Assembly (NCBI GenBank): GCA_964016885.1 | Contig: OZ024765.1 | Coordinates: 10,974,001-11,038,000, forward strand | DNA length: 64,000 bases | Direction: 5' to 3' | From: Eledone cirrhosa | Lineage: Eukaryota | Translations under genes and position numbers: made by a program | Shown: positions 9,285-64,000 of the stretch, in pieces | Numbering within the stretch: position 1 is the stretch's first letter | Layout of the letters: each line of letters starts with the position of its first letter | The notes under the pieces: generated by a model | The model's database searches: none | Told to the model about the DNA's origin: nothing | Seen by the model: the letters and a program-made list of their open reading frames with translations, nothing else

Positions 9285-11194
9285 CTCGTTGTTTCTAGCA
9301 CTTGTTTTGACCATGAAAATATCCACTCAGCGTAAAGATTTTCATAAAAAAATTAAATTAGTCCTTTAGAGTGACCTCCCTTTGACCGTGAAATTCATGT
9401 AAACCATTAAAGCTAAAATTGACCTCATTGACTTTGTTACCTCATAACTTTCTTAATAATTTATATTTTGTGTTGAAATTTAACAGAAATACGCATTAAA
9501 GGTTGTAGATTACGATTCTTGAGATGAATTTAAAATATCTATTAACCGAAAATATATAATAAGGCTAGAAATATAATTGGTAGATTTGTTTACTATTTCC
9601 ACCTATGGTTATGGCTTGAGCGAGATTTCGTTGTAATTACTATATATTTTATTGTGTATATATGTATTATGTACATCTATTAAGCATCATTTAAAGAAAA
9701 TGTGGCTGCCATTTCTAGCGTTTTATATTTATATGCGTGTGTGTATGTTTGCATACGCCCATATATATATATATATAATATTTAATATAGAAATGGCTTC
9801 TACGGGACTAGAACCGATAATTTCCTTCGAATGAAACAGTTCTAGCCCCGTAGAAGCCACTTCTATATTAAATATTGTATATACTCTCTGTATTGAGTAC
9901 CTTACTTACTGCGGTTAACCCCGATTGAAACCGGGATACACACACATAATATATACATATAGAGGTGTATATGAAAGCATATAATATATATATTAATAGG
10001 TGTGCGTATGAAACCAAATGCAAACCCATATATACATAAAACGTTAGAAATAGCAGCTGAATGTCATTTAAATCACTACACACTGCCTTAAAACCTCGTA
10101 GAAATAGTAAACAAATCTCACCAAAATCACAGAAGAAACACGAGGCCGTTTGAAATATTGTAAACAAAGAGTAAAATATATTGGATTTATGAAAATATGT
10201 ACGTTTATACACGAATATATATATTTGTATTCATGTGTGATTACTCCGCTATTTTAAATAACACAGTGAGGTTTTTAAAAACTCCACCGCATATTTGTAG
10301 CGAAATTATCAACTTTTCAAACAATATATTCTGTTAATAACTGTTTCACTGGTTAACTCACAACAATTGTGTAAATAAATTATTATTATTACGTGTATGA
10401 ATTAGAGAGGAAGATTTAAGATATTTTCTTGCCGTTTTTTGTTGATAAAATCAAGATGGAGTTGTCACTGATGACTCAGCAAACTCTTGTGGCATTATGG
10501 GTAATATTTTAGAATTTAATATATGAAAGTATAACCCATTCTCTGTATGTATGCATGCATATTATATATATAAAACATGTATTAAGATATATTATATACA
10601 TCGTATATATACTTTGGGCGGGTCATACTGCCAATAAAAAACACGCACACATGAGGTTTTATATATCGTCTTCAGTTTGTCTTATCGTTTCCAAAGTTGA
10701 AATGTTCCGCATTGTTAAGCACGGAGTCCATGATAACCAGAATGTAAACATAGAAATATATATATATAATATATTTTCCATCGAATGAATAGAAGCAAAC
10801 ACATACACACCCGTACACCAGGTCCGAATAAGAGGAGCCGATCTCCAATTGTTGAAATTCCTCTGGTGTTTACTTTGGAATAGTGTACTAATATTTATAT
10901 GTTCAATCCCTTACATTTACCTGTGTGTGGTGGAACCCCTTCCTGGTTAACCTCGACTGCTTTCCATCTCATAGTGAAATAGTGTACTAATATTTACATA
11001 GTTCTATAAGATCACCACCTTAGCTTTACCTCCTTCAAAGTTGCAATTCCTAAGGTTTTACATCTTTCTTCACAAGATAAATTTCTTTCCTCATAACTTT
11101 TTTAATAATGCATGTTATTAAAAAAAAAGAGAGAGACATTTTCGATTACGATTTTGTTGATGAAATTATCTGATGTCTTTAGAGCATTATTTCT

Positions 11195-11375
11195 TGGCAG
11201 TATCGGTAGAGGGTCAGACCCCATACTTTGAGGCATGGAATTACGGGCCTTGCCATTCTGAGTTCAAATCTCGCCGGGTTTAACTTTGTCTTTCATCCTT
11301 ACGGGGTCGATAAAATAAAGTACCAGTAATGTACTGGGATAATTGCTGGCCTTGAGCCAAAAGTAGAAACAATTA
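11195..11375 (+). mobile_element. Nin-domain tRNA-SINE
   Basis: Family sequence running from TGGCAGTATCGG to GTAGAAACAATTAT. Confidence 0.85.
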
Positions 11376-11420
11376 TGAGTTAACAATTAATCCCTCCATA
11401 CATATATATATATATATATT

Positions 11421-13380
11421 ATATATATTATATAATATATAAGATCAAAAGATGGTTAAATGAGTTCCATGTATTATGCGCATTTCAAAAACAAATATCA
11501 TCATGCAATAACATTTGTGTTTTCATCAGATAAAATAGGAGGACATGATATGAAGGTTAAAAACACTTGTGGATAGTGCAGTTTTAAATCAACATATGAA
11601 AAGTAGTTTTAGATTGATGTGTGATATTAGGGAAAACATTTTTTTGAGGGGGGGGGGAGGTTGGAAAGGATGAAAAAGAGGAGGAGATGAGAGTAAAAAG
11701 TGGAGGGGGAGGAGTATAATGAGGAAGGATGAGATAGGAGGAGAGATGGGTGATAGAGAGAGAGATAGCTTTTATAACTGAGAAAAATATATTGTTTTAC
11801 ATAGTAAGGTTGAAAAACCGTTGGAAGATAATGTATAAATTAAAAGAATTTGAAAATTAACGAAGAGAAAAATAATGTAAAGTTAAGGTTTGTATATTGA
11901 AGGGTTTAATAATATGTGCGATGAAAAGAAATTGTTAATATGTATTAAGAATAATATTTAAGGGTTTAATAATATGTGCGATGGAAAGAAAATGTTAATA
12001 TGTATTAAGAATAATATTTAAGGGTTTAATAATATGTGCGATGGAAAGAAAATGTTGATATGTATTATTAAAAAAACAGAAGTAATGTAAGTAAGGATAT
12101 ATTGTGAGATGATCATGAATAAGTTAGATGAAAGTGAGAAAAAAATAATGAATAGAGGATGAATAATCTAACGTAAAAAAAAATGTTTATGTTTACGAAG
12201 GATTTTTTCAAGGTGATATAAAGTAAGAATATAGTGTATTGTGTAATAATTGTTTCTATATTAGGCACAGTGAGAAAAGGTACAGATTAGGGGTTAGAAA
12301 TTAAAAGAAAAGGAAAAGGAAAAAAGGGAAGTGATGAATAGGAGTGATATAGAATATAATAAATAACTTTGAAATAAGGTAGAAAGATGGGTATATTTTT
12401 AAAGAAGTATATATATATATAGAAATGTGCCTTTGAGAAAAGGATTCTGAATTGATAAAGTTTAGGATATTAGCTGTATACTTTATGGAAAGTTCTGTGG
12501 AATTTATGCAAGCAGATAGAAAACAAGTCAGTGCGTCTATTTATTATAGAATCTAAATTAGATATAATGGTAAATTTTTCATTTAGACAGAGATTGCAAA
12601 TTTTGGATAGAGAACTGTTCAAGTATAAAGACGCAGAAGAAACCTTCTTCCAAAAGATGCTATATTTAATATTTTTGTCTTTCAAGGACCATATGAGTTC
12701 TGAGAGAGCCGTGTTGGTTCTTTTAAGTTGGTATTTAAAAGACGAATGATGATAATAAAGACGAGCTTTAAAGGCGGTGGAAGTGGAGCCAAAATAGGTG
12801 AAGGAATTGGTGTCAGTTATAACTTTACATTCGTAAATTAAGTTTTTATCAAGACAATGGTTGTTGAGAGGACATTTATTTTTAGCAGGGCAATTGCAAT
12901 TGCGATTAGAGAGATTATTAACGAGTGACCTAGTGTTATCTATAGAAGGAATTGGATTGGAGAAGTTATTTGCGATAGGAATAATAGTTTCTTGATTTAG
13001 AATGGGATTAAGAACATTTAGCGAAGTTGTGTTTGACGTTGTATTTGGGTTTGCAGAAATTAGCCGAGGGTTTACAATGACGTCGGGAGTACTATTACTA
13101 TTATTATGATATTCAGTGTTGGAAGGAAGAGATTTAGTATTTAGTATTTTATTGTTGTGTTTAGAGATAATGTTGGAAATGTTGGAGGATGTCGAATAGG
13201 AAAATTTTATAGTGTGTTTGTTAAATATTTTACTATAGATGTGAGGGAGGGAAGCATTTATTTAAGGCACTAAAGAATAATTTAGGAATATTATTATTAA
13301 TAGAGATGGAGAAAGGAGCATTATATCAGATTATGTTTTTGTATCTAGGTCTCTTATTAAAGTTATGGGAATGATCATGA
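11421..13380 (-). mobile_element. 5'-truncated Penelope-like retroelement (Naiad-type): RT thumb, Cys-rich linker, GIY-YIG endonuclease and 3' UTR/pLTR with hammerhead
   Basis: An open frame of about 13243-12470 reads HIYSKIFNKHTIKFSYS...NIISKHNNKIL...CNCPAKNKCPLNNHC..NLIYECKV..TYFGSTSTAFKARLYYH..TALSELIWSLK..CNLCLNEK..NRR..CLH. This contains CxCx5Cx5C, a GIY-YIG-like LIY/YFG pair and CxxC. The upstream KNII*YNAPFS motif is disrupted by a stop. The 3' end abuts (TA)n. Confidence 0.88.
11472..11536 (-). ncRNA. Minimal hammerhead ribozyme in the 3' region of the Penelope-like element
   Basis: Minus strand reads TATTTTAT CTGATGA AAACACAAATG...TATTTGTTTTT GAAA TGCGCA TA ATAC. The 3' strand of stem I is shortened by a deletion. 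Confidence 0.72.
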
Positions 13381-62237: not shown

Positions 62238-62567
62238 TCTATCTATCTAAGGTGGGTAAAATTCCCAAGATCCATGGACGAGTTCTCTCCAGCGGTCTCT
62301 GTCCCTCATTATCGCTGCCATATCCTGCATCTCCAACAGACCAGTGTCTGTCCTTAGGGCATCAACATATGTTAACCTTGGTCTTCCGCTTCTAGTGTGT
62401 CCATGTAGGGGTTCCCAAAGGAGCACTGAGTGCAATGTCAACTCTGGATGTCGGTGAGCATGTCCAGCCAACCTCAGTCTCCTCTGTGTCACTTTTGAGC
62501 TGACTTTTGGGATGCTCCCATACAGCTCTGAGTTTTTCATCCTCAGTGTATACTGATTAATGTTCAT
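62238..62567 (-). mobile_element. RTE-like LINE 3' fragment (same family as 60676)
   Basis: QRRLRLAGHAHRHPE...LLWEP.HG...[11 protein letters not shown]...DRDRWRELV. Confidence 0.88.
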
Positions 62568-62807
62568 ATATATATATATATATATATACGGGGTAACAAA
62601 TAATAGTTATATGCAGTCCACTTAGGTGTAGTCCAGTTCAGAGAAACAATTGTCAGCAATGAGATTAAAAACCTTTTTTGCATAGCAAACCATGTCAATC
62701 TTCTTTCCTGATATATATATATATATATATATATATATATATATACATATATATGATATATATATACGATATTAACAAATGGAAACTATATTTATAAAAC
62801 CATATTT

Positions 62808-62871
62808 ATTTCATTATACATATTTCAAGGACACCAAGTTAAATTATGGTGTGCTTTCATCCGACAAAATA
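62808..62871 (-). ncRNA. Mutated hammerhead (CGGATGA core), same family as 14550/23505/58309
   Basis: Minus strand reads TATTTTGT CGGATGA AAGCACACCA...TGGTGTCCTT GAAA TATGTA TA ATGAAAT. Confidence 0.55.
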
Positions 62872-64000
62872 TAATATAGATCAGTTTTATAAATAAATAT
62901 TGACATACCCTTAAAAAATGCAACCATTTCTGTTGGAAGCTCCCGGATAGTGGGGTTGTTTAATTATATTATTATTAGTATTGGATATTTTTATTTTAAA
63001 AATAAACTTGAGTGCTTTATATCAGTTATAAAAATATTTGCTTGTTGTATCCCAACAATTTAAATAGAACTTTTGCATATATATATATATCCTCCTCCTC
63101 ATCATTTTACGTCCACTTTTCCCTGCTTGCAAGGGTGGGACGGGAACTGATTCTGGCTTGGTTTCTACAGCTGGATGCCCTTCCTAACACCAACCTCATT
63201 TACAGTGAGTGCTGGGTGCTTTTTTTTGCCGTGGCACCTCCACGACCACTTTGCAGTGGAATGATAGGGACCCCAGTCCTATAATCTCATTTCTACAGCT
63301 GAGTAAACTGGAGCAATGTGAAATAAAGTGTCTTGCTCAAGGAAACAACACATCACCCGGTCTGAGAATTGAACTCACAATCTTTCGATTGTGCTTCCAT
63401 ATATATATACATATATATATATATATATAAGTATGTACACGTACATACATATATGTATACAGACGTACAGTAGTATGTATATACATATACTAGTATATAT
63501 ATATACTAGTATGTATATATATATACATACTGTACGTCTGTATACATATATGTATGTACGTATACATACTTATATTTAAGTAACAGCCGTACTAAGAGTG
63601 GGAAATGAAATTTTGTTTCATTTTTTCCGTTTATATATATATATATATATGGAGGAGGTTATAGTTCACTTGAAGCATTGTGTAATGAGGTATAAACGTT
63701 AGAATATGTGTAATAAGGCCAAGACAATGCAGATATGGACATAGAAAAAAGAATGCAATAGTGAGAGATATTGATGAGAATTCGTCTTTCACCTTGAATT
63801 TATTTAAATGTCCTTAATTTTCGAGATAATATCTCTTCTTCGGAGGGAAGTAAAAGTCTCAGACCAGCGTCTTTAAATTTCTAATGAAGCCATGCTGACC
63901 GGAAATAGTATAGAGTTCTAACTTTAATATCAAAGAATTAAAATTAGGTGGGTAAAGAGTAGTCTCCCTTTAAGAGGGGTTTGTTTATGTTTTTGTTGTG

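What the first reader, a model, noticed from the sequence alone, without database searches (positions are those of the whole stretch)
9778..63576. Pervasive fold-back (inverted-duplicate) insertions embedded in (TA)n tracts
Seen: at least 18 local inverted duplications with short or rearranged centres, at 9780-9872, 14302-14656, 15343-15740, 23350-23612, 24871-25163, 27123-27316, 27913-28403, 31024-31278, 31505-31657, 32123-32368, 33155-33415, 33522-33637, 36046-36130, 38296-38415, 38504-38580, 43400-43495, 43590-43743, 50755-50960, 51552-51777, 51964-52320 and 63424-63575. Usually one arm runs to the element end and the other stops earlier at a TA-like microhomology. It affects hammerhead elements, an RTE LINE and a SINE. 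Established: inverted 5' segments are known for Penelope-like elements and for twin-primed LINEs, but classical twin priming gives non-overlapping inversions. Inference: because (TA)n is self-complementary, both ends of a break could prime on the same template, or the cDNA could snap back. That would make overlapping palindromes a routine insertion or repair product here.
Basis: partly seen in the sequence, partly recalled or inferred. Interest (0 to 1): 0.75.

Follow-up and report, generated by a model that had tools for sequence, protein, structure and literature searches.

The report
Double-ended Penelope retroelement stub palindromes
These mirror-image repeats are real, and nearly all are short stumps of Penelope-like jumping genes landing in TA runs, a known insertion pattern whose strict one-end-with-tail, one-end-without layout suggests that both cut DNA ends likely copy the same RNA from two fixed start points.

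Summary
All 21 listed palindromes exist (arms 28-175 bp, 89-100% identical), and shuffles give none. They are not a general fold-back repair product. Twelve map onto 3' ends of autonomous Penelope-like elements (PLEs; Hydra-type and Penelope/Poseidon-type). Eight more look the same but were not tied to an ORF. One is an RTE LINE away from (TA)n. None is a SINE. Each PLE family has two fixed 3' ends separated by a 63-175 bp tail. Of 102 resolvable head-to-head pairs, 95 join a tailed arm to a tail-less arm. In 21 of the 95 the tailed arm is tail only, so neither arm copies the other: snap-back of one cDNA cannot explain them. Likely mechanism: both target ends prime reverse transcription at the two start sites of one RNA, and the cDNAs are end-joined. 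Inverted pLTR, one-sided tail and (TA)n targeting are published (PMC8557442, PMC3846280), and two start sites are shown in vitro (PMC11167929). Independent short reads hold the junctions. The scan noted this architecture and reading before on other DNA.

The parts
9780..9936 (+). Family F2 (Hydra-type PLE): palindrome 9780-9872 plus tail
   Evidence: endonuclease homologue upstream in L340
11420..13640 (-). 3' part of a Hydra-type PLE (family NepA): broken RT-thumb/GIY-YIG ORF 12470-13640, long 3' UTR, hammerhead core, tail-less end at (TA)n; start approximate
14215..14656 (-). Family F3 (Hydra-type): tail 14215-14301 plus palindrome with 100% identical arms
   Evidence: full pLTR-ORF-pLTR copy L324
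15265..15740 (-). Family F5 (Hydra-type): tailed arm longer (322 vs 79 bp upstream of P2)
   Evidence: ORF in L337
23277..23612 (-). F3-related subfamily (78% to F3): tail plus palindrome, hammerhead core; start approximate
24871..25225 (+). Family F4 (Penelope/Poseidon-type): palindrome plus 63-bp tail
25568..25741 (.).
26030..26230 (-).
26382..26441 (+).
27123..27327 (+). F8-related palindrome; tail cut by another repeat at 27328
27834..28403 (-). Family F5: tail-less arm longer (321 vs 188 bp)
30748..31278 (-). 5'-truncated RTE LINE with a 133-bp 5' inversion overlapping the body by 122 bp; single-locus event, not in (TA)n
31504..31735 (+). Family F1 (Hydra-type): palindrome plus 77-bp tail
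31998..32392 (-). Family F8: tail plus palindrome; PLE RT fragment upstream in one copy only
33062..33415 (-). Family F6: tail plus palindrome, CTGATGA..GAAA core; not tied to an ORF
33445..33637 (-). Family F1: tail plus palindrome; same centre at many other loci
36001..36130 (-). F9-related palindrome plus tail piece; not tied to an ORF
38296..38480 (+). Family F2: palindrome plus tail
38504..38580 (.). Family F2: palindrome with no tail on either arm
43400..43590 (+). Family F11: palindrome plus tail; not tied to an ORF; end approximate
43590..43743 (+). Family F14 palindrome; few homologues, weakest assignment
50575..50960 (-). Family F10 (Hydra-type): about 175-bp tail plus older palindrome (89%)
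51505..51777 (-). Family F9: tail plus palindrome; not tied to an ORF
51964..52320 (.). Two adjacent F5 insertions split by a TA tract; the second is a tail-less arm joined to a tail-only piece
62745..63072 (+).
63424..63632 (+). Family F13: TA-rich palindrome plus tail; not tied to an ORF

Best explanation
The palindromes are severely 5'-truncated insertions of several Penelope-like retroelement families in (TA)n, likely made when both cut ends of the target each prime reverse transcription on one element RNA, one at the outer start site (P1) and one at the inner start site (P2), and the two short cDNAs are then likely end-joined head to head. Shown: family identity, two fixed 3' ends, near-strict tail + tail-less pairing, tail-only arms, shared subfamily variants in both arms, variable centres with microhomology or small insertions, (TA)n at both ends. 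Inferred: priming from both ends, one RNA, and how the overlap arises (the P1-primed enzyme displacing the P2 cDNA, or the P2 cDNA folding back and switching to the P1 cDNA). The RTE case is a separate, occasional 5' inversion.
For: Families F1, F2, F3, F5, F10 and NepA lie downstream of RT and/or GIY-YIG-type ORFs, F4 downstream of a PF01541 GIY-YIG ORF. The same layout occurs from about 100 bp to 5 kb. Bimodal 3' ends in each family with enough copies. 110 head-to-head pairs from loci not fetched for that family: 95 tail + tail-less, 1 tail + tail, 6 tail-less + tail-less (2 cut by a locus edge), 8 unresolved; 95 of 102 against 0.5, p = 4e-21. 21 of 95 have a tail-only arm; only 3 of 27 such units (biased loci included) have a same-family piece beyond the tail-less end, so nesting does not explain them. 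Arm-to-arm vs cross-locus divergence: F1 0.049 vs 0.124, F2 0.046 vs 0.111, F3 0.007 vs 0.082, NepA 0.005 vs 0.036. Both ends at (TA)4+ in 77 of 95. 20 of 71 overlapped pairs have at most 2 unpaired centre bases. In vitro a Poseidon PLE cleaves and extends both strands, starts at two RNA sites that bound the tail and is predicted to be a dimer.
Against: No intermediate or RNA was observed; the one RNA-labelled run laid gave 0 records. F5 arms are barely closer to each other than to other loci (0.033 vs 0.041, 5 pairs), and the own partner is the nearest arm in only 14 of 32 F1 pairs. 50 of 95 pairs have arm extents within 10 bp, which is also what fold-back predicts. Tail-only arms could be one-sided deletions of older palindromes. 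Spacers between inverted arms can flip by recombination, so 'which arm is longer' is weak for overlapped pairs. 8 of the 21 listed loci were not tied to an ORF.
Confidence: 0.68

Rival explanations
1. One target end primes at P1; the cDNA snaps back, is copied to P2, and the element's endonuclease or a TA microhomology resolves it there (first reader's snap-back; close to the published 'EN-mediated resolution' and self-priming ideas).
For: Gives tail + tail-less pairing and identical arms. 50 of 95 pairs have near-equal extents, 43 of 95 have junction overlap. Craig et al. and Arkhipova et al. propose resolution or self-priming.
Against: Cannot give a tail-less arm with sequence absent from the tailed arm: 21 tail-only cases, up to a whole ORF in L190. 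Among overlapped pairs the tail-less arm is longer in 19 and the tailed arm in 5.
Confidence: 0.17
2. The short palindromes are non-autonomous elements that replicate as units from palindromic masters.
For: The 33445-33637 unit matches the 40 scored loci at 98-100% over the full query; 29 pairs share one junction; one centre junction has depth 2450 in short-read contigs.
Against: Those loci were picked by similarity; that junction is 1 of 39 F1 pairs in unbiased loci, whose centres vary within a 55-65 bp hot zone. Of 18 arm-asymmetric changes among the 29, only one recurs (twice). Lengths run continuously up to full elements.
Confidence: 0.06
3. A general break-repair fold-back at self-complementary (TA)n acts on any inserted element.
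For: One RTE copy has a 122-bp overlapping inversion; fold-back inversions at LINE insertions are published at low rates.
Against: 110 of 257 PLE insertions vs 2 of 36 RTE (p = 5e-6) and 0 of 32 SINE (p = 8e-8). The RTE case is 207-396 bp from (TA)n. PLE short arms end at one fixed site.
Confidence: 0.05
4. Library or assembly fold-back artefact.
For: Reads across the 33522 centre are far fewer than reads on the arm (tens vs about 10,000).
Against: Arms differ by scattered substitutions; junctions and P2 ends are in short-read data of other samples; family-fixed ends. Hairpin drop-out in amplified libraries, and mapping of both arms to one, would explain the low centre depth (inference).
Confidence: 0.01

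Closest known systems
Insertion architecture of endonuclease-bearing Penelope-like elements (Craig et al. 2021 PMC8557442; Arkhipova et al. 2013 PMC3846280)
   Same: Inverted 5'-truncated copy next to the 5' end, head-to-head palindromic junctions, tail at one end, strong 5' truncation, (TA)n preference.
   Different: Tails here are 63-175 bp rather than 30-40 bp; most units are only 150-450 bp; density is very high (62 pairs per Mb for 7 families); pairing is counted here and is almost strictly tail + tail-less.
Hydra clade of PLEs (PMC8557442, section 11)
   Same: [quoted passage not shown]
   Different: RWI/RWR instead of RWK; elements 3.5-4.3 kb rather than under 3 kb because of long 3' UTRs; no tree was built.
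Poseidon PAc in vitro (Frangieh et al. 2024 PMC11167929)
   Same: Two RT start sites bounding the tail; both target strands cut and extended; AT-rich targets.
   Different: In the parts read, the paper does not tie the two sites to opposite target ends or to inverted pLTRs. There the start site is not homologous to the target; here P2 ends carry a few TA bases.
Twin priming of L1 (Ostertag and Kazazian 2001, recalled; passages in PMC10191854)
   Same: Second target end primes a second cDNA on the same RNA; tail-only units are non-overlapping inversions.
   Different: Second site is fixed and 63-175 nt from the first; most products overlap.
Animal non-LTR retrozymes (bioRxiv 10.64898/2026.07.22.740005)
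   Same: Hammerhead-type motif, PLE kinship.
   Different: These units are ends of coding elements, not tandem arrays of ribozyme monomers.

Membership tests
EN+ Penelope-like element insertion | RT plus GIY-YIG ORF upstream of the repeat end | tested here: met
   F1, F3, F5, NepA (RT and EN), F2, F10 (EN), F4 (EN with PF01541; DKG in L335). Covers 12 of 21 listed loci; 8 not tied; Pfam and PDB gave no RT hit for the Hydra-type ORFs
EN+ Penelope-like element insertion | pLTR-ORF-pLTR partial tandem | tested here: met
   L324 (F3, 362 bp at 99.7%), L192 (NepA, 278 bp at 100%):
EN+ Penelope-like element insertion | Inverted 5'-truncated copy, head to head | tested here: met
   110 pairs; kb-scale cases
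EN+ Penelope-like element insertion | Tail at one end only | tested here: met
   95 of 102; longer than the published 30-40 bp
EN+ Penelope-like element insertion | Hammerhead ribozyme in the pLTR | tested here: inconclusive
   CTGATGA..GAAA cores in F3, F6, NepA and variant cores in F4, F5, F8; no Rfam hit at gathering score; folds not better than shuffles
Hydra clade | DKT in place of DKG | tested here: met
   NepA, F3, F5
Hydra clade | CxCX5C linker, CCHH absent, Cys/His motifs beside E and N | tested here: met
   (NepA, F3, F5, F10; F10 lacks the second Cys before E; F1 shows the CCHH-less EN)
Hydra clade | RWK motif | tested here: inconclusive
   RWI in L190, RWR in L257
Hydra clade | Generally shorter than 3 kb | tested here: not met
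   3.5-4.3 kb; a tendency in the paper, not a strict criterion
Hydra clade | RT phylogeny | not tested
Penelope/Poseidon clade (F4) | DKG and CxxC inside GIY-YIG with downstream histidines | tested here: met
Classical L1 twin priming | Non-overlapping inversion at a variable internal site | tested here: not met
   74 of 95 overlap, site fixed; RTE case overlaps 122 bp
MITE / foldback DNA transposon | Terminal inverted repeats define both ends; constant structure | tested here: not met
   one-sided tail, variable centres, coding retroelement parents
Non-LTR retrozyme | Tandem monomers each with a hammerhead | tested here: not met
   listed units are single head-to-head ends

The most novel reading that the evidence does not exclude
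Penelope-like elements of two distant clades integrate by obligate double priming: a dimeric enzyme assigns the two target ends to the two programmed start sites of one RNA and displaces its own first cDNA. In this genome that has laid down on the order of 100,000 near-perfect hairpins, a main non-microsatellite source of double-stranded RNA for A-to-I hyper-editing.
Probability: 0.3. Interest if true: 0.65.

Novelty: new member of a known kind. Interest (0 to 1): 0.35.

Why it matters
How PLEs make tandem/inverted structures and one-sided tails is named as open in PMC8557442. The pair counts (95:1:6) and the tail-only class turn the in vitro two-start-site result into a testable rule: one site per target end. 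In addition, 0.46% of random 50-mers lie in pairs of just 7 families with a near-perfect inverted partner and 0.68% in other local inverted repeats, against 2.7% in simple repeats. If this is an octopod genome (recalled resemblance, untested), such hairpins could feed the hyper-editing reported for octopus, whose repeats that study could not annotate. No editing was shown here.

Tried and rejected
A genome search with the F1 tail alone found nothing, probably because common words are skipped. Rfam found no hammerhead and MFE folds were uninformative. Pfam and PDB did not recognise the Hydra-type ORFs. I first called these families Neptune; the Hydra section and motifs corrected this. I first read the 40 same-centre F1 loci as a replicating palindrome; unbiased loci argued against it. 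L136, first taken as a second RTE fold-back, is a direct duplication. Loop counts were flawed (internal hairpins picked) and replaced, where one row has a negative value and two rows sit poorly on the diagonal. Six tandem-repeat loci (99 inverted repeats) were dropped before clustering (274 to 175). Empty orthologous sites were sought in contigs of other organisms and not resolved, since repeats swamp the stretch. One RNA-labelled run gave 0 records, which shows nothing. F8 and F9 could not be walked to an ORF in 4 stretches each. The protein-atlas look-up gave no answer.
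Full report
Observation. The window (G000:C26:10974001-11038000, a 3.0-Gb genome) is rich in (TA)n. 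All 21 listed intervals hold inverted arms of 28-175 bases at 89-100% identity; 17 of 21 have an end within 12 bp of (TA)4+. On masked DNA my finder reported 22 local inverted repeats in the window and 274 in 1.054 Mb (the window plus 99 stretches chosen at round coordinates, 20 of them beside the window), and 0 in 3 shuffles. 93 of 274 have an end at (TA)n against 4% for random spans. In 0.78 Mb of dispersed stretches the density is 151 per Mb against 344 in the window, so the window is rich but not special.

Not an artefact. Short-read contigs of the same species label hold many different centre junctions of the 31505 family, and one contig spans the 32123 centre without a difference; that run may be the source sample. 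Raw reads of 3 samples from another study show 3537, 3244 and 3168 reads with (TA)n abutting 33522, and recurrent opposite-strand joints. Reads through the centre are scarce.

What the units are. Copies of each family end at two sharp positions, P2 and P1, separated by a tail: 77 bp (F1), 65 (F2), 88 (F3), 63 (F4), 77 (F5), about 100 (F8, NepA), about 175 (F10). Walking upstream tied F1, F3, F5 and NepA to RT plus GIY-YIG-type ORFs and F2 and F10 to the endonuclease. L324 and L192 are pLTR-ORF-pLTR copies. These ORFs have DKT, YRDD, a CxCX5C linker and no CxxC inside the GIY-YIG core, which fits the Hydra clade as described in PMC8557442 section 11; RWK reads RWI or RWR and no tree was built. 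F4 has DKG, CxxC inside the core and a PF01541 hit, i.e. Penelope/Poseidon type. Twelve listed loci belong to these families (23350 at 78% to F3). Eight (27123, 32123, 33155, 36046, 43400, 43590, 51552, 63424) look the same but were not tied to an ORF; 43590 has few homologues. The same layout is seen from about 100 bp to 5 kb, so the window's palindromes are the short end of a continuum.

The RTE and the SINE. 31024-31278 is a 133-bp 5' inversion overlapping a truncated RTE LINE by 122 bp, unique among 40 scored matches, 207-396 bp from (TA)n. Of 36 RTE copies with an intact 3' end, 2 have an overlapping inverted piece (the second a 43-bp end piece that may be a separate insertion; 30 of the 36 came from loci fetched by searches); of 32 SINE copies none does (one apparent case is a neighbouring 80%-identical element). 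No listed interval aligns to a SINE. A SINE at 26253-26465 has a 29-bp inverted duplication at its own imperfect palindrome, outside the list. PLEs: 110 of 257 insertions are head-to-head.

Mechanism. From all loci held, leaving out those fetched for the family in question and duplicates, 110 pairs were found for 7 families: 95 tail + tail-less, 1 tail + tail, 6 tail-less pairs, 8 unresolved. The 90 pairs from biased loci agree (84 tail + tail-less). Free choice of start site at each end gives at most half; p = 4e-21. In 21 of 95 the tailed arm is the tail alone, joined to an antisense arm that starts at P2; 3 of 27 such units have any same-family piece beyond the P2 end. Neither arm can then be a copy of the other, so two pieces were templated separately, one per target end. 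Arms are closer to each other than to other loci in F1, F2, F3 and NepA, hardly so in F5. Junctions: 43 overlap, 4 blunt, 48 with inserts; one insert is a piece of PLE RT coding sequence (L091); 20 of 71 overlapped pairs have at most 2 unpaired centre bases, suggestive of end-to-end joining but not decisive. I infer double priming on one RNA, followed by end-joining. Whether overlap comes from strand displacement or from fold-back of the P2 cDNA with a switch to the P1 cDNA is open. Against: no intermediates, possible one-sided deletion, possible spacer flipping.

Do palindromes move as units? The 33445-33637 unit matches 40 scored loci, but its junction is 1 of 39 unbiased F1 pairs, F1 centres crowd 55-65 bp from P2, and same-junction copies share almost no one-arm change. 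A hot spot suffices; a master copy is not excluded.

Literature seen. PMC8557442: passages and section 11: inverted 5'-truncated copies, 30-40 bp tail, (TA)n targets, mechanism open. PMC3846280: part 1 of 5 and passages: head-to-head palindromic junctions, self-priming proposed. PMC11167929: parts 1-2 of 4. bioRxiv 10.64898/2026.07.22.740005: part 1 of 5. PMC5625713, PMC10191854, bioRxiv 10.1101/2024.12.14.628481: passages. Ostertag and Kazazian 2001: recalled. Searches (listings) showed no paper stating the one-site-per-end rule or tying cephalopod PLE palindromes to editing; the library lacks most subscription papers and I read no supplements, where octopus PLE families or a model may stand. 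Family labels F1-F15 and NepA are mine; 'octopod' is a recalled resemblance, untested.

Earlier scan notes report the same architecture and a double-priming reading in this and other genomes. I had that reading before looking; they are AI notes, not support.

Verdict. Real, abundant, known architecture of Penelope-like insertions, with a useful quantitative clue to mechanism; not a general fold-back repair pathway. Interest 0.35.

Noticed in passing
window 54000-54386 (-): Exon with a C2 domain (PF00168), synaptotagmin-like by recall; most palindromes lie downstream of it, 63424 upstream.
   Followed up: partly
window 22595-22925 and 23690-24245: The tRNA-headed SINE and the RTE LINE share their 3'-terminal 43 bp, so the SINE is likely mobilised by this RTE.
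   Followed up: partly
window about 30660-30750 and 31283-31480: The RTE with the inversion sits inside another hammerhead-core-bearing repeat end; possible 6-bp target duplication.
   Followed up: partly
L091:9310-9586 and L080 about 2720-2920: PLE RT coding fragments joined directly into short pLTR units (template jump or deletion).
   Followed up: partly
window 2206-2871 and 3785-4811: Older or wider inverted repeats (68% over 674 bp; two 186-bp copies of a dispersed repeat facing each other) that do not fit the tail pattern.
   Followed up: no
window 6867-9284, 16527-19149, 28836-29861: Tandem arrays of 46, about 162 and 123 bp.
   Followed up: no
L042; L075-L079 (G000:C26:10924001-10974000): Tandem-repeat regions with many local inverted repeats (71 in L042); left out of counts.
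   Followed up: no
L335:1219-3654: Tandem and inverted array of about 467-bp units ending in the F13 sequence, so F13 (63424) may be the end of a retrozyme-like repeat rather than of a coding PLE.
   Followed up: no
L219, L245, L251, L233: ORF pieces of other PLE-like clades near the fetched loci.
   Followed up: no
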